Source: Pseudomonadota bacterium (lineage in GTDB: Bacteria > Pseudomonadota > Alphaproteobacteria > JAAXGF01). Taken from it: DNA of 38,287 nt. Location of the stretch: assembly GCA_022563655.1 (NCBI GenBank), contig JADFMW010000002.1, positions 1 to 38,287 on the forward strand, given 5' to 3'. Shown here piece by piece: positions 13,121 through 32,311 of this stretch. The first letter of the stretch is position 1; every line of letters starts with the position of its first letter. A program made the position numbers and the translations under genes. The notes under the pieces are model-generated. The model searched no databases. It was given only the letters and a program-made list of their open reading frames with translations, and had not been told where the DNA came from.

Positions 13121-14506
13121 TCAGACTTCGATATCGAGCGCGTGATTCGACGCGCTGGTGGGTGGGCTGGCGAACTCGTTCGCCTCTTCCGCCGCGGCCG
13201 TGGGGTAGGCGGGCTCGGGGTCCGCCGGGGCGGCGCCGTCGGCGGGATCATGGTGGCCGTCGCCACGCAGGTTGAAGCTCAGGCTGCCCGAGTCGGTGCG
13301 CAGGCCGGCGTCCTGCAGCGCCCGCTCGAGCCCGCGCGCGTCGCGCTGCAACAGCTCGAGCGTGTCGGATCGGTCGGCGGCGATGACCGCCGAGACGCGG
13401 CCGTCGGACGCCACGTCGAGGGTGATGTTGATGGTGCCGAGCGCCGCCGGCTTAAGCTGGATGGTGATGCGATCGAGACCCTTGCGAATCGCGATTTGCA
13501 GTTGCAGGGCGACCTGCTCGGCCGGTGGCTGCGGCGTGCTCGGCGCGCGCTCCGCCTGAAGCGCGGACTCGGGCGGGTTCGACGCGGCCTGCGCCGGCTG
13601 TTGTTGAGCGGGGTTGACGCCCTGCGCACGCGCCGCGCCGCCGTCCTGCGGCTGGGTCGCGAGCTCGAGCACCTCGACCAAGGCAGGAAGGGGCCGGTCG
13701 CTGCTCTGTGCGGGTGCCGGGCTTGTTGCTTCGCCGTCGACCACCGCAGCACCGCCTGGCGCCGTGCCGAGCGTTGCCGGTTTCGTCGTCGTCCCGGCTT
13801 GGCGCGGTGGCGCGAGCGTCCCCGCCGCGGCGGCGGCCTCGGCCGTCGGCTGTTCGGCGGGTGGAGCGTGCGAAGCGGGTCCGGCTGCTACTGCCGCGGT
13901 GGCGAACTGGCCGATCGGCGCCATGGGCGCGCGCGCCGCGATGGTGAGCGCAATACCGGCGGGGCTGGTGGCCGCGGGAACAGCGGGGGTGGCGGCGGAC
14001 GCGGGACTGGCCGGTATGGCTGTGGTCGCGGGAGTGGCCGGGGTGGCGGCGGTCGCGGGGCTCGCCGGGGCGGCTGCGACCGCGGGACTTGCCGGAGTGG
14101 TGGCCGCGGGGCCGGCCGGGGCGGCAGGCGGGACGCCGTCCTGGGCGAAGGCGGGCGGAACGTTGATCGGAGCGGCCGGCGCGGTGTTGACCAAAATGGC
14201 GGCGGGCGCGGTGCTGGTGAGGCCGGGCTGAGCTGCGCCGGGGTTGGTCACGAGCGCTGCGAATGGCGCTCCCACGGCGCCCGCGTCGAGCAAAAGCCCC
14301 AGCGGCGGGCCGTCGGGGGTGCTTTCCGGGGCGCTTTCGGGTTGGCCCTCTAGCGGCGCGGCGCCTGGCACGAGTCGCGGGTCCGTGCCCGCGACCGTGG
14401 CCATCAGCACGGCGAACGTAGGTACGCCTGCGCCGGCGGCGCTCGCGGCCGCCGGGTTGGCGCCTGGCAACAGGGCCTCGCTGAGAAACGCAACCGGAAC
14501 CGTCAC
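13121..14506 (-). CDS. fliK: Flagellar hook-length control protein FliK
   Basis: Pro/Ala-rich central region with ATPA/SPA repeats. C-terminal Flg_hook domain: ITIQLKPAALGTINITLDVASDGRVSAVIAADRSDTLELLQRDARGLERALQDAGL. GTG 14506 (AGGGGA 7 nt upstream) is preferred over the ORF-track TTG 14527, which lies about 6 nt from the predicted sigma54 transcription start. Confidence 0.8.
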   Translation of the reverse strand: MTVPVAFLSEALLPGANPAAASAAGAGVPTFAVLMATVAGTDPRLVPGAAPLEGQPESAPESTPDGPPLGLLLDAGAVGAPFAALVTNPGAAQPGLTSTAPAAILVNTAPAAPINVPPAFAQDGVPPAAPAGPAATTPASPAVAAAPASPATAATPATPATTAIPASPASAATPAVPAATSPAGIALTIAARAPMAPIGQFATAAVAAGPASHAPPAEQPTAEAAAAAGTLAPPRQAGTTTKPATLGTAPGGAAVVDGEATSPAPAQSSDRPLPALVEVLELATQPQDGGAARAQGVNPAQQQPAQAASNPPESALQAERAPSTPQPPAEQVALQLQIAIRKGLDRITIQLKPAALGTINITLDVASDGRVSAVIAADRSDTLELLQRDARGLERALQDAGLRTDSGSLSFNLRGDGHHDPADGAAPADPEPAYPTAAAEEANEFASPPTSASNHALDIEV

Positions 14507-14544
14507 TACGGTATCCCCTGATGACAATCCTGGCCTTCGCTAAA

Positions 14545-14559
14545 GCAATTCGCGGGCCA
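14545..14559 (-). promoter_or_regulatory. Sigma54 (-24/-12) promoter of the fliK-flgD-flgE hook operon
   Basis: The gene strand reads TTGGCCCGCGAATTGCT, i.e. TGGCCC-N5-TTGC with exact GG-N10-GC spacing, about 39 nt upstream of GTG 14506. Confidence 0.65.
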
Positions 14560-14663
14560 ACTCGGGGATCGCGCTAACATGTTGAAATTGATTGTTCTTT
14601 TCTGGAGCCGCGGGCCGTGCCCGGACACAGGCAGGTGCCGTTGGGTAATCCCTGCTGGGGCGG

Positions 14664-14678
14664 CGGCAGTTTGTGCCG
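14664..14678. promoter_or_regulatory. Dyad CGGCA-N5-TGCCG, candidate FlbD enhancer (ftr-like) for the hook operon
   Basis: CGGCAGTTTGTGCCG is a perfect 5+5 dyad centred about 115 bp upstream of the sigma54 element at 14545-14559. Confidence 0.45.
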
Positions 14679-14725
14679 AATGCCTGGAGTGCGGGCTTCC
14701 GTCGTCGTGAGCGCGGCCGCCGGGG

Positions 14726-14755
14726 CAAACGAAACGCCGGCGCGAGGGCGCCGGC
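14726..14755 (-). terminator. Probable intrinsic terminator after fliS
   Basis: GCCGGCGC-GAGG-GCGCCGGC hairpin at 14736-14755, followed on the gene strand by GTTTCGTTTG. It starts about 50 nt after the fliS stop. Confidence 0.4.
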
Positions 14756-14804
14756 GCGGCGGTGGGCGAATGGTGGGAAGGCGCGGCGGCGCCCTCGCGC
14801 CGGT

Positions 14805-15368
14805 TCAGGCCGTGCTGAACACGCGGCCGCTCGGGGCCGGCTCGTGCGTCTTCTTGTCGCGGCCGTAGCTCGGTGCCGCGGCGTCCGGCGACGCTTGCGC
14901 TTCGCGCTCCGCGGGTACCGCGCCGTTGGTGAGCAGACGTCGGTCGAGCTCGCACCATGAGCGGTGCAAGGGCTCGAGCAAGCCGATCACCGCACGCGCC
15001 GGGGCGGGGTCGTTGCGCAGATCGACGGTGGCGAGCTGGCGCATCATGAACGTATACAGCCGCTTGAGGTCGCCGGCGATTTCACCGCCGCGCTCGAGGT
15101 CGAGCGTGAGCAGCAGATGCTCGATGATGTCGATGGCGCGCTTGTTGGCGCGCCAACGCCGCTCGATCTCGCCGGTCTCGATGGCCTGGATGGCTTGGCG
15201 CAGCGCGGTGATCGCGGCTTCGTACAATTTGGCGACGAGCCGCGCCGGCGACGCGGTCAGGATTTCCTGCGCCCGATACGCGTTCGCGCCGCCGCTTCTC
15301 GGGGCCGCTTCGCCGCGCGAGGCTCCGTCCGGTGTTTGCCGGGGCCGCGGTGATCCCTCGGCTTTCAT
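14805..15368 (-). CDS. fliS: Flagellin-specific export chaperone FliS (with about 35-aa basic N-terminal extension)
   Basis: YRAQEILTASPARLVAKLYEAAI...IERRWRANKRAIDIIEHLLLTLDLERGGEIAGDLKRLYTFMMRQL...LLEPLHRSW follows the FliS four-helix pattern. Its ATG overlaps the fliD stop (ATGA). Confidence 0.85.
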   Translation of the reverse strand: MKAEGSPRPRQTPDGASRGEAAPRSGGANAYRAQEILTASPARLVAKLYEAAITALRQAIQAIETGEIERRWRANKRAIDIIEHLLLTLDLERGGEIAGDLKRLYTFMMRQLATVDLRNDPAPARAVIGLLEPLHRSWCELDRRLLTNGAVPAEREAQASPDAAAPSYGRDKKTHEPAPSGRVFSTA

Positions 15369-18355
15369 CGTCTATTCGCCAGCACTTCGAAGGTTTGACG
15401 GATCGATTCGAGAAGGGTTTCCATCCGCGCCAGCGCCTGTTCCGCGGCGATGAACCGCGCGGTCATCGATTCGCGCAGGATCGCGAGTCGTCTGTCGATG
15501 CCATCGATGCGGTCCTGGGCAGTTATGTTCTGCCCTTCGAGCGTGGCGATCTCGCCCTGGATCGCGCCGTTCGTCTTGTCGAGGAAACCGTCCAGCGTGA
15601 AGTACGTCTGGGCCCCGACGCCGATGGTGAAATCGAGCTGAATGCCCGAGGTGCTCGCGGCGCCCGAATAGAACACCTGCAAGCCCTCGGCGCCGCTTTG
15701 GAGCGAGACCGTGAGCGCGCGGCCGCTGATCGATACCGTGCCGTCGCCGCTGCCGTCGGCGGCGCCGTTGATGTTGGCCGAGTCGATGATGTTGGCGTCG
15801 GGCGTGAACGACATCTTGGTCAGCAGGTCGCCGGTGTCGTTGTCGATGACCAACGGATCGATGCTCGAGTTGACCGCGATGTGCGCGCCGGTCGTGTCGT
15901 CGACGACGATTGCGGTGACACCGCTGATGGCCGCGTCGTTGATCGCCGTGGCAAGCGTCTCGAGGGTGTCGGTCGTTACGTCGTAGGCGACGGCGAAGCC
16001 GTTGATGTCGAAGGTCCCCGAGGTGGTGGCGCCGGTGCTGCTCGCGTCGTCGAGCGTCGCCGTCTTGTCGACGACGATCGCCGAGTTCTGGTCGAAGTTG
16101 CCTATGGTGCCGATGTTGAGCGTGTAGCCGCTGGTGTTGAAGCTGGTATTGCCGGTGAAGCTGATGAGGGAGACGTTGGGGTCGGAGCTGCTAAATTCGA
16201 ACGTAAACAGCCGGCGCACGTCGTCGATGTTGCCCAGCAGCGCCGTGTCGAGCTTCGTGTCGTCGATCCCGAGCGTGTTGAAGTCGAGCTCGCTGCTCTG
16301 CTCGGCGTTGTTGACCAGATCGACGCCGATCTGCGCCAGCACCGAGAAGTCGATGCTCACGCCCGTCGCGCCCAGGCCCACGATGTTGGCGAGCTGGCTG
16401 CGTACGTCGTTCATGATCCGGCTGCCGAACAGGACCCCGCTCTCGTCTCCTTTGAGACCGGTGGCCGGGTCGACCTGGTTTTCCGTGTTGATGAAGACGC
16501 GCACGGCGTTGTAGGCGTCGACCAGACCCACGATCGCCGACTTCACCGCCGCCAGGTCCTGCTCGATGTCGATCTTGATTTTGGTGTCCGGCTCGCTTTG
16601 GAACAGCGATAGCGTAACGCCGGCGAAGATGTCGGAGATAGTGTTGCCCGAGCGCTCGATCACCAGGTCGTTGTCGACGCCAAGATTGCCCAGGAGCCCG
16701 GTAGTGTCGGTGACGGTGAGCGAGGCGTTGGTGGTGGTGATGTCCATGCGGAAGCCGGCGCCGTCCTCGACCACCGTGGCGGTGACGTTGGCGACGGTGC
16801 TGGTGATGCGGTCGGCGATGTCCTGGAGCGAATCGACGCTGGCGTCGTAAGAGACCGACGTCGCATCGACCAGGAAGCTGCCGGTCGCGTTGGTCACCGA
16901 GATCACGTCCGCGAGGTCGCCCGTCTTGCTGGTGATCACGTTCGATTCGAAGCGGTCGGCGTCGACCAGCCCGTCGGCGGTCAGGCGCGCCGTCTGCGCC
17001 TTCTGCAGCACGTTGGCGAACGGGTTGCCGCTCGACATCACCAGGTTCTCGAGCTCGTGCAGCTCGATCGAGGCCGCTGTCTCGGTGCCGTCGAAGGTCG
17101 CGGTCACGTTGAACTCTATATCGAGCGAGTTGCCGCCGCCGTCGCTCAGCGTGACGGTCTTGAGCCCGGTCGAGGTTCCGTCGAAGGTGCCGCTGAAGGC
17201 GCCCGCCGTGATCGTGATGGCGGCGGGGGTCGCTAGACTTCCGAAGGTCAGCGTCGTCGAGGCGATGCCCGAGACGTCGCCGGTGCTGTCGGTGATCTTG
17301 ATCGTCGCGGCATCGATCGCGCCGGTGCCCAGGGTGATCGACGCCGTGTCGGCTGCGACGGTGATGTCGGTGCTCTTGTCGAAGTTCTCGTTGAGCACGA
17401 TGCTAACGCCGAACGAGTCGAAGCTCGCGGTCTCGATCTTGCCGGTTGCGATCGCGGTCGACGACAGCGTCGCCGTGTCGGTGGCGCCGTCGCCGCGCGT
17501 CAGGGTAAGGAGCTTGGTGGCGCTGTCGTAGCTGATCAGGAAGGCCGAGTCGCTTTGCGTGCCGTCGAAGGCGACGTGTGCGAACCCGTCGGCGCTTTCG
17601 ACCTTGCTGGCCGCGAGCCCGTTGCGGAACCCGGCGGTGCCGTTGGTCGACGACAGCCCAAGGCTAGACAGCACGGTTCCCGAATCGGTGATCACCAGGT
17701 CGGCGCCGGTCGCGTCGTTGGTGATGATGAGGTAGTGCTCGGTGCTGGTCACCGTGACGATGCTCGCGGTCACGCCGCTTGGCGTGGTGCCGGTGTTGGC
17801 GTTGTTGATGCGCTCGCGGATGTCGAGCAGGCTGTCCGTTGCCGCGACGGTGATCGTGGTGTCGGTGGAAGCGCCGGTGATGGTGAAGCTGCCCGAGATG
17901 GCGAGCGCGTCGGACTGGCTGGCGAACGCCGTGCTGGAGATCTTGTGCGCGGTGGCGATGCGCCTGATCTCGATTTCGTGGCTGCCGGTGGCGGCGGCGC
18001 TGGTCACGCTCACCCCCATCAGGCTGCCGGCGGCCGCCGGCGTCTGGCCGTCGGTGCGGCTGGTCGAGGCGAACACTTGGTTGTTGTTGAATATGTCTCC
18101 CGAGCCGCCGACCGTCACGGCGCCGCGCAAGGTGCTCACGGCGTTCTTGAGGCTGTCCATGAGCGCGCGCAGATCGGTGAGCGCGGCGATCTCCTCTTCG
18201 TTGCCCGTGATTCGGGTCTCCAGGGTAACCGCCGGGATCCGCTTGGCCGCGATGATGGCGTCGACGGTGCCGACGAAGTCGATGCCCGTCGCGAGGCCCG
18301 AGAACGACGCGCGGCCCGAGCTGTCGACGACGAGACTATCGAGGTTCAGAGGCAT
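15365..18355 (-). CDS. fliD: Flagellar filament cap protein FliD (HAP2), unusually large at 996 aa
   Basis: N-terminus FSGLATGIDFVGTVDAIIAAKRIP...LTDLRALMDSLKNAV. Central VLFGSRIMNDVRSQL...LAQIGVDL...LGIDDTKLDTALLGNIDDVRRLF. C-terminal coiled coil IATLEGQNITAQDRIDGIDRRLAILRESMTARFIAAEQALARMETLLESI. All are FliD hallmarks. Confidence 0.9.
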   Translation of the reverse strand: MPLNLDSLVVDSSGRASFSGLATGIDFVGTVDAIIAAKRIPAVTLETRITGNEEEIAALTDLRALMDSLKNAVSTLRGAVTVGGSGDIFNNNQVFASTSRTDGQTPAAAGSLMGVSVTSAAATGSHEIEIRRIATAHKISSTAFASQSDALAISGSFTITGASTDTTITVAATDSLLDIRERINNANTGTTPSGVTASIVTVTSTEHYLIITNDATGADLVITDSGTVLSSLGLSSTNGTAGFRNGLAASKVESADGFAHVAFDGTQSDSAFLISYDSATKLLTLTRGDGATDTATLSSTAIATGKIETASFDSFGVSIVLNENFDKSTDITVAADTASITLGTGAIDAATIKITDSTGDVSGIASTTLTFGSLATPAAITITAGAFSGTFDGTSTGLKTVTLSDGGGNSLDIEFNVTATFDGTETAASIELHELENLVMSSGNPFANVLQKAQTARLTADGLVDADRFESNVITSKTGDLADVISVTNATGSFLVDATSVSYDASVDSLQDIADRITSTVANVTATVVEDGAGFRMDITTTNASLTVTDTTGLLGNLGVDNDLVIERSGNTISDIFAGVTLSLFQSEPDTKIKIDIEQDLAAVKSAIVGLVDAYNAVRVFINTENQVDPATGLKGDESGVLFGSRIMNDVRSQLANIVGLGATGVSIDFSVLAQIGVDLVNNAEQSSELDFNTLGIDDTKLDTALLGNIDDVRRLFTFEFSSSDPNVSLISFTGNTSFNTSGYTLNIGTIGNFDQNSAIVVDKTATLDDASSTGATTSGTFDINGFAVAYDVTTDTLETLATAINDAAISGVTAIVVDDTTGAHIAVNSSIDPLVIDNDTGDLLTKMSFTPDANIIDSANINGAADGSGDGTVSISGRALTVSLQSGAEGLQVFYSGAASTSGIQLDFTIGVGAQTYFTLDGFLDKTNGAIQGEIATLEGQNITAQDRIDGIDRRLAILRESMTARFIAAEQALARMETLLESIRQTFEVLANRR

Positions 18356-18528: not shown

Positions 18529-19725
18529 CTACTGCAACAGCCTGAGCAGGTTCTGCGGGATCTGGTTGGCCTGGGCCAACATCGCCACGCCAGCCTGCAA
18601 CAGCACTTGCTTGCTGGTGAAGTTGATGATCTCGGAAGCGATGTCGAGGTCCATCAGAGTGCTCCGGGCCGCCTCGGCGTTCTCGATCGACGAGGCCAGG
18701 TTGGCGGACGCGAACTCGAGCCGGTTCTGGCTCGCGCCGATGGTCGCCCGCGACTGGTTGAGGGTGTCGATGGCGCTCGCCAGCGCCGTGATCGACGCGT
18801 TGGCGTTCGAGCTGGTGGCGCCGCTGATGACCGAGGCGCTGACGCCAAGGGCGGACGAGGTGACCGAATCGATCGTGAACGACAGATCGTCTTCCGTGGA
18901 GATGGTGCCCGTCCCCACCTTGAACGTAACGGTCGTGCCGGCGGTGCCGGTGAGGGTGATCGTCGAGTCGGTGGTCGCGTACGTATCGGCCGCCGAGTTG
19001 AACGCGGTGTTCAACTGTAGCGTGATGGTGCCGTTCTCGGTGGACGAGTTGTTGGTCAGCACGACCACGGTGCTGGTGAGCAACGCGTTGGCGCCCGCGC
19101 CGCCATTGAGAGCAGTCGCATCGATCGTGCCGGTGTAGGCGGTGCCGCCAACGGTTATCTCGAAGATGTTGGTGCTGGCGGTGTAGTTGGCAGTCGTCGA
19201 GGCGGCGGCGGTGATCCCGGTGGACGAGATCGACTCGACGCCGTCGCTGACGGCAAAACCAGCACCCGCGCCGGTACCGGCGGCCGTCTCCGAACCGCTG
19301 ACCCCGCCTTGCGTGAGCTTGGTGCCGTTGAACTCGGTGTCGTTCGCGATCCGGTCGATTTCCGACCGCAGCGCCGTGAACTCGCTGTTCAGAATGGCCC
19401 GCTCGGTAGTGCCGAGCTGGTCGGATGCCGCTTGCGTGGCCAGCGACTTCATCCGCACCAGGATGTCCGCCACCGTGGCCATCGCGCCGTCGGCGACCTG
19501 CAACATCGAGGATGCCTGGCCGGTGTTGACGTTGGCCTGCTTGAGGGCCTCGACCTCGGCCCTGAGGCGCGATCCGACGGCCAGTGACGCGGCGTCGTCC
19601 TTGGCCGAAACCACGCGCGTACCTGCTGAGAGCTTCGACAGCGAGGACGTCACCTGCATGTCGGTCCGCGCGAGGTTGCGGTGGGCGACGTTCGCCGCGA
19701 AGTTGGAAATAATGTTAAGAGCCAT
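18529..19725 (-). CDS. fliC: Flagellin
   Basis: N-terminus MALNIISNFAANVAHRNLARTDMQVTSSLSKLSAGTRVVSAKDDAASLAVGSRLRAE and C-terminus NRLEFASANLASSIENAEAARSTLMDLDIASEIINFTSKQVLLQAGVAMLAQANQIPQNLLRLLQ are canonical D0/D1 segments. The central domain is Ser/Thr/Gly/Ala-rich. TAGGAGAA precedes the ATG. Confidence 0.95.
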   Translation of the reverse strand: MALNIISNFAANVAHRNLARTDMQVTSSLSKLSAGTRVVSAKDDAASLAVGSRLRAEVEALKQANVNTGQASSMLQVADGAMATVADILVRMKSLATQAASDQLGTTERAILNSEFTALRSEIDRIANDTEFNGTKLTQGGVSGSETAAGTGAGAGFAVSDGVESISSTGITAAASTTANYTASTNIFEITVGGTAYTGTIDATALNGGAGANALLTSTVVVLTNNSSTENGTITLQLNTAFNSAADTYATTDSTITLTGTAGTTVTFKVGTGTISTEDDLSFTIDSVTSSALGVSASVISGATSSNANASITALASAIDTLNQSRATIGASQNRLEFASANLASSIENAEAARSTLMDLDIASEIINFTSKQVLLQAGVAMLAQANQIPQNLLRLLQ

Positions 19726-19866: not shown

Positions 19867-19980
19867 TAGCCGGGGTCCGCGGCGCCCGGCCGCGCCTGGA
19901 CCGGCAAAAATTTCCGCCGCTTGTCGAATGTTGCCCGGCAAAAGCTGCCGCCCTGCGCGGCCCCGACCGCGGCCCGCTCG
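19867..19980. repeat. Direct repeat copy A (114 bp) containing two GGCA-N5 dyads; upstream activating region of the flagellin promoter
   Basis: Matches 25362-25474 in the same orientation with 3 substitutions and 1 single-base indel (aligned by eye). Contains CGGCAAAAATTTCCG (19902-19916), CGGCAAAAGCTGCCG (19936-19950) and a GGTCC...GGACC hairpin-capable segment. Confidence 0.85.
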
Positions 19981-20543: not shown

Positions 20544-20857
20544 ATGACGCTCGCCGTCGCGCTCGCCGAGGGTGCTTCAAACCATGACGAGAGTCCCCGT
20601 GTCACGGCGACGGCCGGGGCGCCGTGGCCGAGCAGATCATCGCCATCGCTCTCGACCATGGCGTCAAGCTGCGCGAGGACGCCGACCTGGCCGGGGTCCT
20701 GGCGGCGCTCGACATCGACAGCCCCATACCCCTCGGCGCCCTGAGCACGGTCACCGGAATCCTGAGCTATGTTCACCGCGCCAGAGGCGCGCCCGATAAT
20801 TGCGCCAGAGGCGCGCCCGATGATTCCGCCATGGACAATTCGGAGGACGCTCCATGA
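20544..20857 (+). pseudogene. FlhB C-terminal-domain-like small protein (YlqH/FhlB family) with an apparent -1 frameshift near 20607-20612
   Basis: Frame 0 gives MTLAVALAEGASNHDESPRVTA. Frame 2 continues (D)GRGAVAEQIIAIALDHGVKLREDADLAGVLAALDIDSPIPLGALSTVTGILSYVHRA. Joined, these follow the family pattern AVAL.Y......P.V.AKG.G..AE.I...A.EH.IP..ED..L...L..LD....IP..LY..VAEI..FV across the break. Confidence 0.6.
20778..20825. repeat. 24-bp tandem duplication at the 3' end of the FlhB-C-like gene
   Basis: gcgccagaggcgcgcccgataatt followed by gcgccagaggcgcgcccgatgatt, encoding ARGAPDNC/ARGAPDDS. Confidence 0.85.
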
Positions 20858-21215: not shown

Positions 21216-21524
21216 ATGGACCTGGACAGTTACTTCCGATTCCTGGCGGCGCTGGTCCTGGTGATCGCGCTGATCGGCGCGGTCGCCTGGGTGGTGCGCA
21301 GATTTGGCCTCGCCGGGCGGTTGCCGTCGATCGGCGGGCGGACCGCGCGCCGTCTCGGCGTGGTCGAATACATGACGCTCGACCCCAAGACCCGCCTGGT
21401 GCTCATACGGCGCGACGACACCCAGCATCTGCTGCTGCTGGGCGCCGCCGGCCCGGTCGTCGTCGAACGGGGCATCGAGGCGCTGCCCGAACCCGAAACA
21501 ATCAAGGCGGAGGCCGCCGAATGA
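21216..21524 (+). CDS. fliO: Flagellar biosynthesis protein FliO
   Basis: 102 aa with a single TM helix (FRFLAALVLVIALIGAVAWVVRRF) followed by LGVVEYMTLDPKTRLVLIRRDDTQHLLLLG, the FliO pattern. Its stop overlaps the fliP start. Confidence 0.8.
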   Translation: MDLDSYFRFLAALVLVIALIGAVAWVVRRFGLAGRLPSIGGRTARRLGVVEYMTLDPKTRLVLIRRDDTQHLLLLGAAGPVVVERGIEALPEPETIKAEAAE

Positions 21525-22273
21525 TCCGCAGATTCTCCACCCTGTTCTGTCTTTCGGCCGTTTGTCTGATTGTCCTGGCGACGATGGCGACGCCGGCAGT
21601 GGCGCAATCCTTCTCGTTCGACATGGGCGACGCCGGCGGCAGTTTCACCGGGCGCATCATCCAGCTTCTCGTCCTCATGACGGTCTTGACCCTGGCGCCG
21701 TCGATCCTGGTGGTGGTGACCTCATTCACCCGGATCGTGGTGGTGCTGTCGATCATCCGCAGCGCCCTCGGCCTGCAGCAGACCCCGCCCAACGCGGTGC
21801 TCATAAGCCTGGCGCTGTTTCTCACCGCCTTCATCATGGCGCCGACCTTCGAGACCGCCTATGTCAACGGCATCGAGCCGCTGATCAACGAAGAGATTTC
21901 CGAGGAAGAGGCCTTCGAGCGCACCGTGGCGCCGGTCCACGGCTTCATGATGCAGCATGTGCGCGAGAAGGACCTGGCGTTGTTTCTCAACATCGCCGAC
22001 GAGCCGCCGCCGGAAAGCGCCGCCGATGTGCCGCTCAGGATCCTGGTGCCGTCCTTCATCATAAGCGAACTCAAGCGCGCCTTCGAGATCGGCTTCCTGG
22101 TGTTCATACCCTTTGTCATCATCGACATGGTTGTCGCCTCGGTGCTCATGCCCATGGGCATGATGATGCTGCCCCCGGTGATGATCTCCCTGCCGTTCAA
22201 GCTGATTTTCTTTGTCCTAGTCGACGGCTGGTATCTGATCACCGGCAGCCTCGTGCAAAGTTTCAGCGTCTGA
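21521..22273 (+). CDS. fliP: Flagellar export apparatus protein FliP
   Basis: LTLAPSILVVVTSFTRIVVVLSIIRSALGLQQTPPNAVLISLALFLTAFIMAP, SELKRAFEIGFLVFIPFVIIDMVVASVLMPMGMMMLPP and PFKLIFFVLVDGW are canonical FliP/SctR motifs. Confidence 0.95.
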   Translation: MIRRFSTLFCLSAVCLIVLATMATPAVAQSFSFDMGDAGGSFTGRIIQLLVLMTVLTLAPSILVVVTSFTRIVVVLSIIRSALGLQQTPPNAVLISLALFLTAFIMAPTFETAYVNGIEPLINEEISEEEAFERTVAPVHGFMMQHVREKDLALFLNIADEPPPESAADVPLRILVPSFIISELKRAFEIGFLVFIPFVIIDMVVASVLMPMGMMMLPPVMISLPFKLIFFVLVDGWYLITGSLVQSFSV

Positions 22274-22276
22274 TCC

Positions 22277-24793
22277 ATGAACAGGGCGGAGAAACGTCGC
22301 CAAGAGAAGCTGGCGCGGAAGGCCGCGAAGAAACCCCGCGTCGTTTCGCTACGTCCCGGAGAACAGGCCGCTGGCGGCGTCCCCGAGGACTATCTGGAGG
22401 AACTCGCGAGCAAGGGGATTCAGCTCCATCTGGCGGGTCGGGTGCAGGACGCGGAGAACATCTATCGCCAGATTCTCGAAATCGATCCCGATCACGCCGA
22501 TGCCAATCACCTGCTGGGCGGCTTGGCCTGTCAGGCCGGCAACCCTGCGCAGGCCATCGGGTTGATCTCCAAGGCGATCGTCAGGGCGCCCGATCGGCCG
22601 CTGTATCACTTCAACCTGGGAACCGTGTACCAGAGCCTGGAACGATTGGCGGAAGCCGTCGACAGTTGCCGAAACGCCCTCGCCCTCAAACCCGATTACG
22701 CCGAGGCGCATTTTGGCCTGGGAATGTCGCTCCACGGGCTGGGGCGTTTGGAAGACGCCACCGCCAGTTACCGCCAGGCCCTCGCCGTCAAGCCCGACAA
22801 CGCCGTGACCCACAACAATCTCGGCGCCGCCCTTCAGGGTCTGGGGCGGATGGATGACGCCGTTGCCTGCTTTCGCCGAGCCATCGCCCTCGATCCCGGC
22901 TACGCCGAGGCGCACGGCAATTTGGGAAATGCCCATCTGGAAATGGGGCGGATGGAAGACGCCGTGGCCAGCAACCGGCAAGCGCTCGTCCTCGATCCCG
23001 ATCTGGTCGAGACCCATAGCAATCTGGGAAACGCGTTTCAGAAACTGGGCCGCTCCGAGGACGCCGTCGCCAGCTATCGCCGGGCCATCGCCCTCCAGCC
23101 GGACAACGCCAAGGCGCACAGCAACCTGGGAAACGTCCTGCAAGGCATGGGGCGTTTAGAAGACGCCGCCGCCAGTTACCGCCAAGCCCTCGCCGTCAAG
23201 CCCGATAACGCCGTGATCCACAACAATCTCGGCGTCGCCCTTCAGGGTCTGGGGCGGATGGATGACGCCGTTGCCTGCTTTCGCCGAACCATCGCCCTCC
23301 AGCCGGATTTCGCGGTCGCCTGGAATAACCTCAAGTCCGCGACCAAGGCCGTCCAGTATGCGGACGGGCGGCTGGTCCAAAACCGGGACCGGCATCTGGC
23401 CGGGCTTGGCGACGCCGCCCGCGCGACCGGCGAATTCGCCATGCTCGAATATTCTCTGGCGGCGTTCAGACCCCATCGGGCCGACGGCGGCTTCCATAAG
23501 GCGACGGCGGGCCTGCCGCCCCGCGATGACGAAGACGTCGTCATCGATCGTGTTTCTGACGCCGACCGGCCGTCGGGCGGGCCGCCGGAACTTTCCGAAA
23601 ATCTCATCGCCCTGCTGCATTTCGGACGCAGCGGGACCGGGCTGCTCCATAGCCTGATCGACGGCCACCCGGAAATTTCGACGCTTCCCGGCATCTATCT
23701 TCGCGGTTACTTCAACGCCGGCGTCTGGCAGACGCTCAGCGCCGGCGGCTGGCGGGAATTGCCCGACCGGTTCGCCGATATGTTCGAGGTTCTGTTCGAC
23801 GCCTCCTCCGCCAAGATCACCCCCGGTATTCTGGGGGAGAAAATCGCCAATTTGGGCGTCAAGGAAGGCATGACCGCAGTCGGGGAACATCGTGACGAAT
23901 CACTGTCCCTGGATCGGGAAACATTCCGCGCCGAAACCCTTGGACTGATGCGCCGGCTCGACAGGGTCGATCCCATGTCATTCCTGCAAATCGTTCACGC
24001 GGCCTATGAAAAGATCCTGGGTGCGACCACTCACAAGCAGACGATGTTCTACCACATCCACGATCCGGAAAATTTCACCAAACTCAATTTTCTGCGCTAC
24101 GCCCCCGACGCCCGGCTGTTGATGATGGTTCGCGAGCCCATCCAGTGCTGCGAATCATGGCTGCGGGTGCCGTTCGCCGACAACGACTATGGCCAGGTCG
24201 CCGATAAAATCATCAACATGCTGTTCGCCATCGACCAGGTTCCGTTCCGCGTCCGGGATTCGGTGGGGGTGCGTCTGGAGGATTTGAAAAACCGGCCCGA
24301 GGACACCATGGGCGCCCTGTGCGCCTGGATGGAGGTTGGCGAATCCCCGAGCCTCTATGAGATGACCGCCCAGGGAAAGAAATGGTGGGGCGATCCGTCG
24401 AGCCTCGATTACGGGAAAGACACGGCCCTCTCGCCGTTCGGCAAATCTTCCGTGAAACGCGCCGTCGGTTCGATATTCAGCGCAACGGACCAGTTGGTGT
24501 TGGGCACGTTGTTCTATCCCTTCAGCGTGCGGTTCGGTTACCGCGAGCCCGATCAAGCCGGGTTTGAACGGGACTTGCGGAAGATCAGACCGTTGTTGGA
24601 CGGTATGCTGGATTTCGAGAAGGCGATGGCGGAACGGTCGAACAGGGATCACGACGCCTTCAAGGCCGGCGGCGCCTACCGCCTGCTTCGCGCGGGCCTA
24701 TTGGAGCGCTGGGAGGTTCTCGATGAATTGGGCGATTACCCCCATATGCTGACCCCGCTGGTCCCGCCCGACACCGGAAAGACCGACACATGA
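22277..24793 (+). CDS. TPR-repeat / sulfotransferase fusion protein (838 aa)
   Basis: About nine 34-aa TPR units span aa 40-350. The C-terminal half carries the sulfotransferase 5'-PSB loop FGRSGTGLL (nt 23621-23647), the 3'-PB motif VREPIQCCES (R-x-P-x5-S, nt 24128-24157) and VRLEDLKNRPEDTMGALCAWMEV. It starts 4 nt after the fliP stop. Confidence 0.85.
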   Translation: MNRAEKRRQEKLARKAAKKPRVVSLRPGEQAAGGVPEDYLEELASKGIQLHLAGRVQDAENIYRQILEIDPDHADANHLLGGLACQAGNPAQAIGLISKAIVRAPDRPLYHFNLGTVYQSLERLAEAVDSCRNALALKPDYAEAHFGLGMSLHGLGRLEDATASYRQALAVKPDNAVTHNNLGAALQGLGRMDDAVACFRRAIALDPGYAEAHGNLGNAHLEMGRMEDAVASNRQALVLDPDLVETHSNLGNAFQKLGRSEDAVASYRRAIALQPDNAKAHSNLGNVLQGMGRLEDAAASYRQALAVKPDNAVIHNNLGVALQGLGRMDDAVACFRRTIALQPDFAVAWNNLKSATKAVQYADGRLVQNRDRHLAGLGDAARATGEFAMLEYSLAAFRPHRADGGFHKATAGLPPRDDEDVVIDRVSDADRPSGGPPELSENLIALLHFGRSGTGLLHSLIDGHPEISTLPGIYLRGYFNAGVWQTLSAGGWRELPDRFADMFEVLFDASSAKITPGILGEKIANLGVKEGMTAVGEHRDESLSLDRETFRAETLGLMRRLDRVDPMSFLQIVHAAYEKILGATTHKQTMFYHIHDPENFTKLNFLRYAPDARLLMMVREPIQCCESWLRVPFADNDYGQVADKIINMLFAIDQVPFRVRDSVGVRLEDLKNRPEDTMGALCAWMEVGESPSLYEMTAQGKKWWGDPSSLDYGKDTALSPFGKSSVKRAVGSIFSATDQLVLGTLFYPFSVRFGYREPDQAGFERDLRKIRPLLDGMLDFEKAMAERSNRDHDAFKAGGAYRLLRAGLLERWEVLDELGDYPHMLTPLVPPDTGKTDT
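22741..23304. repeat. Near-identical 156-bp intragenic duplication (22741-22896 and 23149-23304, period 408 bp = 4 TPR units)
   Basis: Direct comparison of the two segments shows only a handful of substitutions. The proteins read GLGRLEDATASYRQALAVKPDNAVTHNNLGAALQGLGRMDDAVACFRRAIALDP and GMGRLEDAAASYRQALAVKPDNAVIHNNLGVALQGLGRMDDAVACFRRTIALQP. Confidence 0.9.
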
Positions 24794-25005
24794 ACAAGGA
24801 ATTGCTCTGCACCCTCGGACCGGCCTCGATGAACGATCGGGTGATCGGTCGCCTGACGGAGCTCGGCGTGGCCCTGTTCCGCATCAATCTGTCCCATACG
24901 GCGCTTAAGCCGGGCGAGCCGCTTCCCGACTGGTTCATGCGCGACGTCGTCCAGGATGTGCTGCGCGGCAGGATCGAGGCCGGCGGCGATGTCTTCGTCC
25001 CCTGA
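24790..25005 (+). pseudogene. Pyruvate-kinase-like N-terminal fragment (71-aa ORF)
   Basis: KELLCTLGPASMNDRVIGRLTELGVALFRINLSHT resembles the pyruvate kinase N-terminus (K.vcTiGPas...e.l..l...Gm.v.R.NfSHg). Similarity then ends, and the ORF is about one-seventh the length of a pyruvate kinase. Its ATG overlaps the sulfotransferase stop. Confidence 0.4.
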
Positions 25006-25219
25006 CGGCTGCCCGGTCTTCTGGTTTACCGGACTGTCGGGGGCGGGCAAGACCACGGCCGCCGAATCCGTATCGGTCATACTGGCGCAAAGGGGGTTGA
25101 CCGTCGTCCTCTTCGACGGCGACGAGGTGCGCCGGCGCCCGAACGGTTCATCAACGAACCCCTGTGGCCCGAGTTCCAGGAGCTCAATCAGGTCTTGGTG
25201 GACTATCCGTCACAGTTGA
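24989..25219 (+). pseudogene. Adenylylsulfate (APS) kinase CysC-like N-terminal fragment
   Basis: MSSSPDGCPVFWFTGLSGAGKTTAAESVSVILAQRGLTVVLFDGDEVRR matches the APS kinase start (v.WlTGLSGsGKsT.a..l...L...g....lLDGDnvR), with the P-loop at nt 25031-25057. Similarity stops near 25137 and no frame continues the family pattern. Confidence 0.55.
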
Positions 25220-25361: not shown

Positions 25362-25474
25362 TAGCCGGGGTCCGCGGCGCCCGGCCGCGCCTGGACCGGC
25401 AAGAATTTCCGCCGCTTGTCGACTGTTGCCCGGCAAAAGCTGCCGCGCTGCGCGGCCCCGACCGCGGCCGCTCG
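25362..25474. repeat. Direct repeat copy B (113 bp), immediately 3' of fliW; same dyads as copy A but no adjacent sigma54 promoter
   Basis: See copy A. The dyads are CGGCAAGAATTTCCG (25397-25411) and CGGCAAAAGCTGCCG (25431-25445). I found no GG-N10-GC element in the 100 bp to its left. Confidence 0.85.
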
Positions 25475-31410: not shown

Positions 31411-31672
31411 GGATTCCTCCTCAAGTTTTCCGATTATGGTTGATGTCAGCGGGAAGCCAAAGGCTTTACCCGAGATTCCCCGGATGACCACTCGCGGTCA
31501 CCGGTAGCGTAGCAAAAATGGCGGTCGAAGGCGAATCCGGTCCCGGTCCGGAAGTTTGCATGGCGATCTCCTATGTTGATTGTCCAGAGCGGCACGCCGG
31601 CGGCGCGTCGGGGTGAATCATCACGCGGCTGTTGGGGAATTGACCTTCGTTCGCGCGGCTGGGCCCGTGTGC

Positions 31673-31688
31673 TTAACACGTTTTTAAC
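31673..31688 (+). promoter_or_regulatory. Perfect CtrA box TTAA-N7-TTAAC upstream of fliX
   Basis: ttaa-cacgttt-ttaac, 67-82 nt upstream of the fliX ATG at 31755. Confidence 0.55.
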
Positions 31689-31754
31689 CGTACTCGGCGA
31701 TGTTGGCGCCTGCGGTTGCACCTCAACGGCAGCACCGGTCAACATTCGCAAACT

Positions 31755-32174
31755 ATGAAGATCACCGGTCCTGGTCCCATCCGCCCGACGACGACACGCC
31801 CGAGCCGGGTTTCGCGCGGCGCCAAGAGCGCCGAATTCTCGAGCCAGGTTTTGCGTGAGTCGGAGGCTGCGAACCATGTCGTCCCGGTTACGACGGTGGG
31901 CGCGCTCGGCGGCCTGCTCGCCGCGCAGGAGGTGCCTGATGCGACCGATGACCGCTCGCGCGGCATCGCCCGCGGCGCCGACCTGCTCGACCGGCTCGAC
32001 GAGATCCGCCACGCGCTGCTCAGCGGCACCATCGCGCGCGAGAGGCTCGTCGAGCTGCGGCGCCACGTGCAAGCGCAGAGAACGGCGTTCGACGACGCGC
32101 GCCTGGACGCGGTGCTCGACGAAATCGATCTCAGGGCCTCGGTTGAGCTTGCCAAGCTCGGTATAACACCCTGA
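31755..32174 (+). CDS. fliX: Flagellar assembly regulator FliX (trans-acting partner of FlbD)
   Basis: MKITGPGP... with a low-complexity N-terminus, then LLAAQEV...RSRGIARGADLLDRLDEIRHALLSGTI...LRRHVQAQR...DARLDAVLDEIDLRASVELAKLG. This matches my recollection of the FliX family (class II flagellar assembly regulator). It lies divergent from the flgI operon, with the small secreted-protein gene between them. Confidence 0.75.
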   Translation: MKITGPGPIRPTTTRPSRVSRGAKSAEFSSQVLRESEAANHVVPVTTVGALGGLLAAQEVPDATDDRSRGIARGADLLDRLDEIRHALLSGTIARERLVELRRHVQAQRTAFDDARLDAVLDEIDLRASVELAKLGITP

Positions 32175-32311
32175 ACCCGGCACAGGGCCGGGAACGAACC
32201 CCGGCGCGTGCACAATGGCTTGCGGTTGCCGGCGAAGGCCCATATATAGTCCGCCGAGAAACGTACCTATGGACCGCTCAGTCGAGCCGGTTCGCGCGGG
32301 GGAGCTTTAAG

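What the first reader, a model, noticed from the sequence alone, without database searches (positions are those of the whole stretch)
22277..24793. TPR-sulfotransferase fusion co-transcribed with fliO-fliP: candidate flagellar sulfation enzyme, an FlmG-like architecture with a swapped catalytic module
Seen in sequence: an 838-aa ORF starts 4 nt after the fliP stop. Residues 40-350 form about nine TPR units. The C-terminal half has both PAPS-binding signatures of sulfotransferases: the 5'-PSB loop FGRSGTGLL (nt 23621-23647) and the 3'-PB motif VREPIQCCES (nt 24128-24157), plus VRLEDL..P......C.W. Fragments of an APS kinase (PAPS synthesis) lie immediately downstream. Established: Caulobacter FlmG combines an N-terminal TPR flagellin-binding domain with a C-terminal glycosyltransferase to modify flagellins. 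Inference: this protein may use its TPR array to capture a flagellar substrate and sulfate it, or a glycan on it. Candidate substrates are the Ser/Thr-rich flagellin (18529-19725) and the giant Thr/Ser-rich FliD. I know of no described flagellin or flagellar-protein sulfotransferase. By eye the catalytic half (about 23900-24300) is more AT-rich than the flanking flagellar genes, hinting at foreign origin.
Basis: partly seen in the sequence, partly recalled or inferred. Interest (0 to 1): 0.8.

Follow-up and report, generated by a model that had tools for sequence, protein, structure and literature searches.

The report
TPR-sulfotransferase gene fused onto fliOP operon
An intact, selectively maintained gene for a TPR-guided sulfotransferase sits directly behind the flagellar export gene fliP, and relatives of it have landed repeatedly next to flagellar genes in other marine bacteria, which suggests (but does not prove) an undescribed sulfation of flagellar proteins.

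Summary
ORF 22277-24793 (838 aa) starts 3 nt after the fliP stop. It encodes nine TPR units plus a C-terminal Sulfotransfer_3 domain with intact PAPS-binding motifs and a confident sulfotransferase fold closest to protein-tyrosine sulfotransferases. The downstream "APS kinase fragments" are the wreck of a complete PAPS-synthesis pair (a pyruvate-kinase-barrel/ATP-sulfurylase fusion plus APS kinase). That pair normally accompanies this enzyme family. It looks intact as far as the contig reaches in a close relative (L141) but is deleted here. The gene is compositionally foreign (GC3 0.77 vs 0.88) yet under purifying selection (dN/dS 0.24). It has no deviation at 103 conserved positions. The family is large, marine and mostly not flagellar; it occurs even in SAR11. 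None of the 80 nearest fliP loci has it. Even so, at least five separate clades sit in flagellar loci (after fliP twice, beside fliC, with a fliS paralogue, near flgG). That is 9 of 56 clusters, against 5% or less expected. The best reading is a cytoplasmic, TPR-targeted sulfotransferase acting on a flagellar export substrate (confidence 0.42). The main rival is a mobile accessory enzyme with a non-flagellar target. The FlmG analogy concerns architecture, not homology.

The parts
22277..24793 (+). TPR-sulfotransferase gene (838 aa), intact
   Evidence: ORF list; Pfam TPR families plus Sulfotransfer_3; 750 homologues; dN/dS 0.32 overall against L141
22400..23317 (+). Nine TPR units (aa 42-347), the presumed substrate-recognition module
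   Evidence: Direct reading of the translation; TPR_1 231 bits; 102-nt periodic DNA repeats up to 81% identical; a 4-unit shorter variant, P0001
23597..24790 (+). Sulfotransferase catalytic domain (aa ~441-838) with a family-specific C-terminal helical extension
   Evidence: PF13469 over aa 450-687; AF2 model pLDDT 90.5; Foldseek top hits TPST2/TPST1, olefin-synthase/CurM ST and Stf9; 0 deviations at 103 conserved columns; dN/dS 0.24
23621..23647 (+). 5'-phosphosulfate-binding loop FGRSGTGLL (Arg451)
   Evidence: GRSGTG at least 90% conserved; aligns with PRSGTT of TPST1 and RSGST of CurM ST
24128..24157 (+). 3'-phosphate-binding motif VREPIQCCES (Arg619 invariant, Ser627 at least 90% conserved)
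   Evidence: aligns with MVRDGRASVHS of TPST1
21521..22273 (+). fliP, immediately upstream with a 3-nt spacer
   Evidence: Pfam FliP 273 bits, TIGR01103; junction sequence
21216..21524 (+). fliO
   Evidence: Pfam FliO, TIGR03500
20624..21186 (+). FlhB-C-terminal-like small ORF plus a 110-aa ORF that head the same gene string
   Evidence: Weak Bac_export_2 hit; the same order recurs in L038, L141 and 55 of 80 fliP loci
24790..25005 (+). Remnant of a pyruvate-kinase-barrel/PUA_2/ATP-sulfurylase fusion gene. Residues ~10-52 are joined in frame to residues 694-724, so about 640 codons are deleted.
   Evidence: tblastn of the L017 725-aa protein against the window; intact 720-aa gene next to P0017; the gene continues in the close relative L141
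25016..25132 (+). Remnant of APS kinase (residues ~30-68 of 199, P-loop only; lies inside ORF 24956-25219)
   Evidence: Pfam APS_kinase positions 4-44 of 152; tblastn
19867..19974 (+). Upstream copy of a 108-nt direct repeat that brackets the fliOP/TPR-ST block
   Evidence: the repeat finder D2, 97% identity; alignment; 0 matches expected by chance
25362..25469 (+). Downstream copy of the 108-nt direct repeat
18529..19725 (-). Flagellin, a candidate substrate (inference only)
   Evidence: Flagellin_N and Flagellin_C
15365..18355 (-). FliD (996 aa), a candidate substrate (inference only)
   Evidence: FliD_N and FliD_C

Best explanation
The gene encodes a soluble, cytoplasmic, PAPS-dependent sulfotransferase. 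Its nine-unit TPR array recruits a protein substrate to a catalytic domain related to protein-tyrosine sulfotransferases. In this organism it is transcribed, and probably translationally coupled, with fliO-fliP. It sulfates a flagellar export substrate before that substrate leaves through the flagellar type III system. The most likely substrate is flagellin; alternatives are FliD, another axial protein, or a glycan already attached to one of these. The gene arrived by horizontal transfer as a self-contained module: TPR-ST, a pyruvate-kinase-barrel/ATP-sulfurylase fusion, and APS kinase. The two PAPS-synthesis genes have since been deleted, so the enzyme now depends on PAPS made elsewhere in the genome.

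Shown: an intact gene, conserved PAPS-binding motifs, a sulfotransferase fold, purifying selection, the ancestral PAPS module and its deletion, and recurrent flagellar linkage of the family.

Inferred: co-transcription, TPR-mediated substrate capture, the identity of the substrate, the timing before export, and the existence of another PAPS source.
For: (1) Enzyme integrity.
- PF13469 scores above its cut-off.
- The 5'-PSB and 3'-PB motifs lie in columns that are invariant or at least 90% conserved.
- The window copy deviates at 0 of 103 conserved columns, against a family median of 3.
- The AF2 model has pLDDT 90.5, and all top PDB matches are sulfotransferases, led by TPST2 and TPST1.
- dN/dS of the ST domain against L141 is 0.24. 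FliP gives 0.18 and FliO 0.39.

(2) PAPS dependence. ATP-sulfurylase and/or APS-kinase genes lie next to family members in 50 of 135 loci, usually immediately downstream.

(3) Operon coupling. The spacer after fliP is 3 nt, on the same strand, with no terminator-like site between the genes. L141 (FliP 95% identical) has the same order.

(4) Recurrent flagellar linkage.
- A second, separate ST clade (L038, L122, L163, L165, L167, L171; 73-98% identical to one another) also starts right after fliP. So does a deep branch, L191, at 57%.
- The two fliP-linked clades are only 52% identical to each other. The window's clade is 63-67% identical to non-flagellar relatives.
- Other clades lie beside fliC-flaG-fliD-fliS in a gammaproteobacterium (L025) and between fliC and fliW in a relative of the window organism (L136). 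Further copies follow a FliS-like gene beside several flagellins (L128), lie near flgG/flgE (L210) and near fliF (L036).
- 9 of 56 clusters (70% identity, at least 5 kb of flank) are flagella-linked. The binomial P is 0.0017 at an assumed 5% background.

(5) Architecture precedent. The FlmG TPR domain is necessary and sufficient for flagellin binding (PMC7591256).

(6) Cytoplasmic location. There is no hydrophobic segment; the maximum 19-residue Kyte-Doolittle score is 1.16.

(7) Protein rather than polysaccharide targets. Family members keep company with other TPR-enzyme fusions next to flagellin or giant DUF4214 proteins. They are not found in polysaccharide clusters.
Against: - Most family members are not near flagellar genes (47 of 56 clusters).
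- The closest homologue with a known context (P0002, 67% identical) and the window's clade-mates (P0017, P0042) are in unrelated or transposase-rich contexts.
- The family occurs in SAR11, which is not flagellated (from memory).
- None of the 80 nearest fliP loci carries the gene, so it is accessory to the flagellum.
- The dedicated PAPS genes are dead here, and no other PAPS source can be seen in the window.
- No glycosyltransferase, Maf or nonulosonic-acid genes are in the window, so a glycan acceptor has no support.
- Flagellar clusters also host unrelated insertions, such as the selenoneine-like genes next to the L038 copy. Adjacency could therefore reflect tolerance of insertions.
- The 5% background is an estimate, not a measured null for accessory genes.
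- There is no biochemical evidence of any kind.
Confidence: 0.42

Rival explanations
1. The gene is a mobile accessory sulfation module with a non-flagellar target. The TPR-ST, with its own PAPS supply, sulfates some other cytoplasmic substrate. That could be another secreted or surface protein such as the giant DUF4214-type proteins, or a small molecule. It has simply been inserted at a permissive operon end inside the flagellar cluster, and expression from the fliOP promoter is incidental.
For: - The majority of the family is non-flagellar, including copies in SAR11 among housekeeping genes.
- The clade-mate P0042 sits among IS66/DDE transposases.
- GC3 is 3.3 SD below that of the flagellar genes.
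- 0 of 80 related fliP loci carry the gene.
- In Njordibacter, two of the three mapped copies sit beside giant DUF4214 proteins rather than flagellar genes.
- Unrelated genes also insert next to fliP-ST in L038.
Against: - Two different ST clades occupy exactly the same position directly after fliP, which is hard to explain by chance.
- Several further clades abut fliC or fliS-like genes.
- Enrichment is 16-17% against 5% or less expected.
- The arrangement persists under purifying selection across the divergence between the window and L141, and across clade B (ST identity down to 57%).
Confidence: 0.38
2. The gene is a stranded or decaying passenger. After loss of the ATP-sulfurylase and APS-kinase genes the enzyme has no sulfate donor. 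It is functionally dead, or on its way to becoming a pseudogene, and its intact reading frame only reflects how recent the deletions are.
For: - The PK-Sat gene has lost about 640 codons, and APS kinase keeps about 40 of 199 residues.
- The surviving remnant pieces are still 57-59% identical to a distant homologue. This fits recent deletion rather than long decay.
- Many alphaproteobacteria assimilate sulfate through APS without needing PAPS (general knowledge, not tested here).
Against: - The window copy has no deviation at 103 conserved columns, better than the family median.
- There are no frameshifts or stops in 838 codons.
- dN/dS is 0.24, although this averages over both lineages and over time before the deletion.
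- Clade B copies have no adjacent PAPS genes and are nevertheless conserved across wide divergence. The enzyme can therefore persist without a linked PAPS supply.
Confidence: 0.12
3. The protein has a non-catalytic or regulatory role. It would use its TPR array as a scaffold or chaperone in flagellar assembly, as other flagellar TPR proteins do, and the sulfotransferase domain would bind a nucleotide as a sensor rather than transferring sulfate.
For: TPR proteins with structural roles are common near flagellar genes. The survey in PMC11870540 had to filter enzyme-fused TPR proteins out. The catalytic base could not be assigned from sequence: the TPST catalytic Glu has no evident counterpart.
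Against: The PAPS-binding residues and three histidines (His574, 593, 595) are invariant across the family. The family is tightly linked to PAPS-synthesis genes, which only makes sense for a donor-consuming enzyme.
Confidence: 0.05

Closest known systems
FlmG of Caulobacter crescentus (modular flagellin O-glycosyltransferase; PMC7591256)
   Same: It has an N-terminal TPR domain followed by a C-terminal transferase domain. It is a cytoplasmic enzyme genetically tied to the flagellum. In FlmG the TPR domain alone binds flagellins and is needed for modification.
   Different: The FlmG catalytic domain is a GT-B glycosyltransferase that uses a nucleotide sugar. Here it is a PAPS-dependent Sulfotransfer_3 domain. 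No homology beyond generic TPR repeats was shown. The TPR-ST family is mostly non-flagellar and appears to have moved into flagellar loci several times. Flagellin binding is untested.
Tyrosylprotein sulfotransferases TPST1/TPST2 (PDB 3AP1, 3AP3, 5WRJ)
   Same: They are the best structural matches (Foldseek E 5e-5 to 1e-4, probability 1.0). They share the 5'-PSB (P/G)RSGT(T/G) loop and the 3'-PB R-x7-S motif, which align residue for residue. They act on protein substrates.
   Different: Identity is only 13-16%, and TM-scores are modest (0.35-0.5 normalised to the target) because the query has large insertions and a C-terminal extension of about 150 residues. The TPST catalytic Glu is not evident. 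TPST's 'KDP' lysine (the catalytic lysine, from memory) aligns with an invariant His. TPSTs are Golgi membrane proteins without TPRs. The acceptor residue here is unknown.
RaxST of Xanthomonas (bacterial protein-tyrosine sulfotransferase with dedicated PAPS synthesis, RaxPQ) - from memory, not tested
   Same: It is a bacterial sulfotransferase with a protein or peptide acceptor whose function depends on dedicated PAPS-synthesis genes.
   Different: RaxST has no TPR array, and its substrate RaxX is a secreted peptide. No sequence comparison was made here.
CurM / olefin-synthase sulfotransferase domains and mycobacterial Stf9 (PDB 4GBM, 4GOX, 2Z6V)
   Same: They have the same Sulfotransfer_3-type fold and PAPS motifs, and are the second tier of structural matches.
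   Different: Those enzymes act on acyl-carrier-protein-bound polyketide intermediates or on lipids or glycolipids. They sit in polyketide or lipid contexts and have no TPRs.
Eukaryotic OGT / SPINDLY (TPR array plus a C-terminal transferase acting on many proteins)
   Same: The TPR region scores best against OGT and SPINDLY TPRs. The logic is the same: a long TPR superhelix feeds protein substrates to a C-terminal transferase.
   Different: The catalytic domain is an unrelated glycosyltransferase, and the TPR similarity is generic.
NodH with NodPQ (rhizobial Nod-factor sulfation) - from memory
   Same: A sulfotransferase is encoded together with its own ATP-sulfurylase/APS-kinase genes, so that PAPS is supplied for one dedicated modification.
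   Different: The acceptor is a lipo-chitooligosaccharide. NodH has no TPRs, and its PAPS genes (cysDN/cysC-type) have a different architecture from the PK-barrel/Sat fusion seen here.

Membership tests
Sulfotransfer_3 (PF13469) PAPS-dependent sulfotransferases | Profile match above the curated gathering score | tested here: met
   32.7 bits against a cut-off of 27, aa 450-687. Relatives also carry PF13469.
Sulfotransfer_3 (PF13469) PAPS-dependent sulfotransferases | 5'-phosphosulfate-binding loop and 3'-phosphate-binding Arg/Ser motif | tested here: met
   GRSGTG (aa 450-455) and R619...S627 lie in columns that are invariant or at least 90% conserved. They align to the same motifs in TPST1 and CurM ST.
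Sulfotransfer_3 (PF13469) PAPS-dependent sulfotransferases | Sulfotransferase (P-loop-like alpha/beta) fold | tested here: met
   AF2 pLDDT 90.5, pTM 0.89. The 19 best Foldseek PDB hits are all sulfotransferases.
Sulfotransfer_3 (PF13469) PAPS-dependent sulfotransferases | Sulfotransfer activity with PAPS | not testable with these tools
   Support is indirect only: genomic linkage of the family to ATP-sulfurylase and APS-kinase genes in 50 of 135 loci.
Tyrosylprotein sulfotransferase (TPST) family | Catalytic Glu base and Lys/Ser triad as in TPST2 (residue identities from memory) | tested here: inconclusive
   In the alignment TPST's 'KDP' Lys aligns with the invariant His595. No conserved Glu follows the HPE motif, where Thr469 and Pro471 are invariant instead. 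No structural superposition of residues was possible.
Tyrosylprotein sulfotransferase (TPST) family | Significant sequence similarity to TPSTs | tested here: not met
   phmmer against PDB gives E 0.65-0.87. Only fold-level similarity at 13-16% identity was found.
FlmG-type modular flagellin modifiers | N-terminal TPR domain plus a C-terminal transferase domain | tested here: met
   Nine TPR units plus an ST domain.
FlmG-type modular flagellin modifiers | GT-B glycosyltransferase catalytic domain | tested here: not met
   No glycosyltransferase family was detected; the C-terminal domain is a sulfotransferase.
FlmG-type modular flagellin modifiers | TPR domain binds flagellin; flagellin modification depends on the gene | not testable with these tools
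   This needs two-hybrid or pull-down assays and mass spectrometry.
FlmG-type modular flagellin modifiers | Genetic linkage to flagellar genes | tested here: met
   The window and L141 copies lie after fliP. At least four further clades are in flagellar loci. This holds for only about 16% of family clusters.
Maf flagellin nonulosonic-acid transferases | Maf (DUF115-type) domain and linked nonulosonic-acid biosynthesis genes | tested here: not met
   No such domains were found in the protein or in the ORFs scanned across the window.

The most novel reading that the evidence does not exclude
The TPR-ST family, with its dedicated PK-barrel/ATP-sulfurylase and APS-kinase genes, is a widespread marine bacterial system for direct O-sulfation of proteins. 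The TPR array selects large secreted or surface proteins as substrates. In several lineages, including this one, the chosen substrate is flagellin or another flagellar axial protein. That would make sulfation a new post-translational modification of bacterial flagella. As far as I recall, it would also be only the second kind of bacterial protein sulfotransferase, after RaxST. The companion TPR-2OG-oxygenase and TPR-methyltransferase genes would belong to the same modular toolkit of TPR-targeted protein-modifying enzymes.
Probability: 0.2. Interest if true: 0.85.

Novelty: new variant of a known kind. Interest (0 to 1): 0.6.

Why it matters
Many bacteria decorate their flagellins with sugars, methyl groups or phospho-linked groups. 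These decorations affect filament assembly, motility, phage and predator recognition, and immune detection. The searchable literature holds no report of bacterial flagellin sulfation. If these enzymes sulfate flagellar proteins, that adds a strongly anionic modification to the known set. It would also give a second example of the FlmG principle, a TPR domain delivering flagellin to a catalytic module, but with different chemistry. And it would open an uncharacterised family (218 clusters at E <= 1e-30, 1068 at E <= 0.001) that is abundant in ocean bacteria and carries its own PAPS factory. The hypothesis is directly testable by mass spectrometry. One carrier, Candidatus Njordibacter sp. Uisw_058, has a complete genome and may be in culture. 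Even if the target is not flagellar, the family is a candidate protein-sulfation system in bacteria, where very few are known.

Tried and rejected
- **Profile search of alignment A1 against PDB sequences.** It was swamped by residual TPR columns and said nothing about the ST domain. The single-sequence search and the fold search were used instead.
- **The Alteromonas paper that mentions sulfotransferases and a flagellin glycosylation island.** The sulfotransferases there belong to O-chain islands, not the flagellar island.
- **The SAR11 lead, a sulfotransferase next to pilin genes in HVR4 (PMC2217521).** My three SAR11 loci have housekeeping neighbours and no pilins. The idea that these enzymes generally modify surface-filament subunits was not supported there.
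- **The 108-nt repeat as an RNA gene or known element.** There is no Rfam match. Its hairpin is no more stable than shuffled sequence (z = -1.1). It is absent from all 220 fetched loci.
- **A single ancestral insertion behind fliP shared by the window and L038.** This was rejected as the simplest reading. The two STs are 52% identical, and the window's ST is 63-67% identical to non-flagellar relatives. None of the 80 intervening fliP lineages has the gene. An ancient insertion with allele replacement cannot be excluded.
- **Foreign origin of only the catalytic half.** Rejected, because GC3 is equally low in both halves.
- **A polysaccharide acceptor.** No family member that I mapped lies in a Wzx/Wzy or glycosyltransferase cluster. 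I give it low weight but have not excluded it.
- **First tree script.** It timed out and was rerun with simpler distances.


Full report
**1. Observation**

The fliP stop (TGA, 22271-22273) is followed by TCC and then the ATG. The upstream genes are FliP (Pfam 273 bits; TIGR01103 298.6 bits) and FliO. The start codon is credible because the N-terminal peptide MNRAEKRRQEKLARKAAK recurs at the start of many homologues.

Residues 42-347 read as nine consecutive 34-residue TPR units. Pfam TPR_1 scores 231 bits, and the DNA shows a 102-nt periodicity with copies up to 81% identical. The C-terminal half matches Sulfotransfer_3 above its gathering score (32.7 against 27 bits, aa 450-687). They fall in columns that are invariant or at least 90% conserved in alignments of 46 and 150 family members.

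**2. The enzyme**

An AlphaFold2 model of aa 380-838, built on 46 sequences, is confident (mean pLDDT 90.5, pTM 0.89). The 19 best Foldseek matches in the PDB are all sulfotransferases. They are led by human TPST2 and TPST1 (E 5e-5 to 1e-4, probability 1.0), then the olefin-synthase and CurM sulfotransferase domains and Stf9. TM-scores are modest (0.35-0.5 normalised to the target) because the query carries large insertions and a C-terminal extension of about 150 residues.

At the sequence level TPST1's PRSGTT aligns with GRSGTG and its MVRDGRASVHS with MVREPIQCCES. TPST's "KDP" lysine aligns with an invariant histidine in FYHIHDP. I could not find a counterpart of the TPST catalytic glutamate (residue identities from memory), so the catalytic base is unassigned. 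His574, His593 and His595 are invariant candidates.

The protein has no hydrophobic segment (maximum 19-residue Kyte-Doolittle score 1.16), so it should be cytoplasmic. The window's copy deviates from consensus at none of 103 highly conserved columns, while the family median is 3.

**3. The downstream "fragments"**

In relatives, the gene that follows the TPR-ST is a 720-725-aa fusion of a pyruvate-kinase barrel, a PUA_2 domain and ATP sulfurylase, followed by APS kinase (P0017 context; L017). In the window, the 71-aa ORF at 24790-25005 consists of residues ~10-52 of that fusion joined in frame to residues 694-724. About 640 codons have been deleted. The APS-kinase ORF keeps only residues ~30-68 of 199.

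ATP-sulfurylase and/or APS-kinase genes lie close to family members in 50 of 135 loci, many of them on short contigs. This is strong indirect evidence that the family consumes PAPS.

**4. History of this copy**

A metagenomic contig, L141, comes from a close relative: FliO is 97% and FliP 95% identical, and the flanks share 90.8% DNA identity. It has the same order: the FlhB-C-like ORF, a 110-aa ORF, fliO, fliP and a TPR-ST of 836 aa. A PK-Sat gene follows and aligns without interruption over residues 9-193, up to the contig end. Homology with the window runs about 115 nt into the PK-Sat gene and stops where the window's deletion begins. So the whole module once sat behind fliP, and the PAPS genes were lost later in the window's lineage.

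Between the two genomes the ST domain has dN/dS 0.24 and the TPR region 0.40. FliP gives 0.18 and FliO 0.39. This indicates purifying selection, averaged over both lineages. The synonymous divergence of the TPR-ST (0.46) is 2-10 times that of the flanking genes (0.04-0.21). I cannot tell whether this reflects weaker codon bias or allele exchange.

The gene's third-position GC is 0.774, against 0.877 +/- 0.031 for the 19 genes of the flagellar cluster (18 flagellar genes plus orf20854). It is equally low in both halves. A clade-mate, P0042, lies among IS66/DDE transposases. Together these points indicate horizontal acquisition of the whole gene.

**5. Is the family flagellar? Mostly not**

The catalytic domain has 750 word-indexed hits, nearly all with TPRs. 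The exhaustive search finds 218 cluster representatives at E <= 1e-30 and 1068 at E <= 0.001. Carriers are marine Rhodospirillales, SAR116, Rhodobacteraceae, SAR11, SAR324, Nitrospinaceae and some gammaproteobacteria.

- The closest homologue with a long contig (P0002, 67% identical) lies among TRAP-transporter and housekeeping genes.
- P0017 lies among amino-acid catabolism genes.
- SAR11 copies sit beside tsaD/hemCD in one locus and clpX/lon in another. The first of these still has its own APS kinase and a PK-barrel gene.
- In the reverse survey, none of the 80 genome loci with the most similar FliP (60-79% identity) has a TPR-ST, PK-Sat or APS-kinase gene within 6 kb.
- Nothing downstream of fliP is shared with the nearest relatives.

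The gene is therefore accessory to the flagellum.

**6. A minority is flagellar, repeatedly**

- **Clade A** (window and L141): directly after fliP.
- **Clade B** (L038, L122, L163, L165, L167, L171; 73-98% identical to one another) and a deep branch, L191, at 57%: also directly after fliP, starting 1-2 nt after its stop where gene calls are available.
- **Clade C**: L025, from the complete genome of the gammaproteobacterium Candidatus Njordibacter. The order is TPR-2OG oxygenase, TPR protein, TPR-ST, APS kinase, cytidylyltransferase, flagellin, FlaG, FliD, FliS and a sigma-54 activator, the usual site of a flagellin-modification island. L210 has two STs plus APS kinase beside flgG/flgE.
- **Clade D**: L128 has a FliS-like gene, a small ORF and a TPR-ST, next to three or four flagellins, FliD and FliS. 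L036 lies near fliF.
- **Clade F**: L136 shares the window's backbone (fliS-fliD-fliC ... fliW-flgL-flgK ... flgI; flagellin N-terminus 74% and FlgI 67% identical). Between fliC and fliW it holds three TPR-fusion genes, two of them STs only 38-40% identical to the window's.

Clades A and B are 52% identical to each other. Clade A is 63-67% identical to non-flagellar relatives. So the two fliP-adjacent genes are not simple orthologues.

After clustering at 70% identity, 9 of 56 clusters with at least 5 kb of flank, and 12 of 70 loci of at least 8 kb, have flagellar genes within 10 kb. I estimate a background of 5% or less for a random gene in a flagellated genome. Against that, the binomial probability is about 0.002. 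This null is an estimate and ignores the tendency of accessory genes to cluster in variable regions.

A 2025 preprint on flagellar TPR scaffolds lists sulfotransferase-fused TPR proteins among those it filtered out near flagellar clusters. Such genes have therefore been seen but not studied (PMC11870540).

**7. What the non-flagellar copies suggest**

In the Njordibacter genome two other copies lie in arrays of TPR-fusion genes: four or five TPR-2OG-Fe(II) oxygenases, the TPR-ST and a TPR-methyltransferase. These arrays lie beside giant DUF4214 proteins of 1338 and 1583 aa. P0009 lies near a 2448-aa protein, further TPR proteins, APS kinase and methyltransferases. I found no copy in a polysaccharide-synthesis cluster.

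This pattern fits a toolkit of TPR-targeted enzymes that act on large secreted or surface proteins, with flagellin as one recurrent neighbour. It also fits the fold's nearest relatives being protein sulfotransferases. All of this is inference.

**8. Mechanism proposed**

The enzyme is made from the fliOP transcript. The spacer is 3 nt, there is no terminator-like site between the genes, and the only promoter-like match lies upstream at 20772-20800. The enzyme stays in the cytoplasm. It uses its TPR array to hold a flagellar export substrate and transfers sulfate from PAPS to a hydroxyl on the protein, or on a glycan attached to it, before export.

FlmG is the precedent for TPR-mediated capture: its TPR domain alone binds flagellins and is required for modification (PMC7591256). 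Because the linked PAPS genes are dead, PAPS must come from elsewhere. Clade B shows that copies without linked PAPS genes can persist.

I put 0.42 on a flagellar substrate, 0.38 on a non-flagellar substrate with incidental placement, 0.12 on a stranded inactive gene and 0.05 on a non-catalytic role.

**9. Comparison and novelty**

The protein is a member of the Sulfotransfer_3 superfamily: the profile, motif and fold tests are all met. It is not demonstrably a TPST (sequence similarity not significant, catalytic residues unresolved). It is not an FlmG homologue (the catalytic domain test is not met). It may work like FlmG.

Six phrasings for flagellin sulfation returned no paper, and searches combining sulfotransferase with flagellin found nothing relevant.

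I rate it a new variant of a known kind: a modular, TPR-guided modifier in a flagellar operon with a chemistry not described for bacterial flagella. The evidence is comparative genomics only.

**10. Verdict**

It fails for the family as a whole. Interest is 0.6. The association is real and surprising enough to justify a mass-spectrometry test, but the substrate is unproven and this particular copy has lost its PAPS supply genes.

Noticed in passing
L038 8560-14087; also the P0120 and P0110 (L122) contexts: Directly downstream of the fliP/TPR-ST pair in clade B lie four genes: a Pyr_redox_2 + AIRS/AIRS_C fusion (SelD-like), a GT1 glycosyltransferase, a DinB_2 + FGE-sulfatase protein (EgtB-like) and a Methyltransf_33 protein. 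This looks like a selenoneine/ergothioneine-type cluster, unrelated to flagella.
   Followed up: no
P0017 context; L017 7078-9782; L029 11390-12926: The usual partner of the TPR-ST is a fusion of a pyruvate-kinase barrel, PUA_2 and ATP sulfurylase (720-725 aa), followed by APS kinase. In SAR11 the PK barrel is a separate 340-aa gene after APS kinase. Why a pyruvate-kinase domain accompanies PAPS synthesis is unexplained; it might regenerate ATP from the ADP made by APS kinase.
   Followed up: partly
window 19867-19974 and 25362-25469: A 108-nt direct repeat, 97% identical, brackets the block from the FlhB-C-like ORF through fliOP, the TPR-ST and the PAPS-gene remnants. Homology with the close relative L141 ends at window ~20283, and L141 has flgC upstream where the window has fliC, so the block has been rearranged. 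The repeat has no Rfam match, no significant fold, and no copy in 220 other loci.
   Followed up: partly
L127 1225-20599 and L022 4100-17836 (Candidatus Njordibacter sp. Uisw_058): These loci hold arrays of consecutive TPR-fusion genes next to giant DUF4214 proteins of 1338 and 1583 aa. The arrays contain four or five TPR-2OG-FeII_Oxy_5 oxygenases, one TPR-ST and one TPR-methyltransferase. The same TPR-oxygenase plus TPR-ST pairing sits beside flagellin in L025.
   Followed up: partly
window 22277-23320, compared with protein P0001: Another assembly holds the same protein minus 136 residues, exactly four TPR units (702 against 838 aa, otherwise identical). This is either real repeat-number variation or an assembly collapse of the 102-nt periodic repeats.
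   Followed up: partly
window 22277-22340 (aa 1-21): A strongly basic N-terminal peptide, MNRAEKRRQ.KLARKAAK, is conserved at the start of many family members. Of 206 full-length proteins, 62 have at least 8 Lys/Arg in their first 30 residues. Its role is unknown.
   Followed up: no
window 22277-24793 compared with L141 4096-6606: Synonymous divergence of the TPR-ST between the two close relatives is 0.46. The adjacent FlhB-C-like ORF, the 110-aa ORF, fliO and fliP give 0.04-0.21. This could reflect allele exchange at this locus or weaker codon bias.
   Followed up: no
window 15365-18355: FliD is 996 aa, roughly twice the usual length, with a long Thr/Ser/Gly/Ala-rich middle region. The L136 relative has a similarly long FliD.
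   Followed up: no
L141 3841-4092: The close relative has an extra 258 bp between fliP and the TPR-ST, including an 83-aa ORF with no Pfam match. The window has only a 3-nt spacer at this point.
   Followed up: partly
window 33268-34023: A HAD-family hydrolase gene inside the flagellar cluster has the same low third-position GC (0.766) as the TPR-ST. It may be a second foreign insertion.
   Followed up: no
window 1491-2495(-), 31446-32243(-), 34186-35016(-), 14506-14958(-): Several long ORFs within the flagellar cluster have no Pfam match. Whether they are real genes was not examined.
   Followed up: no
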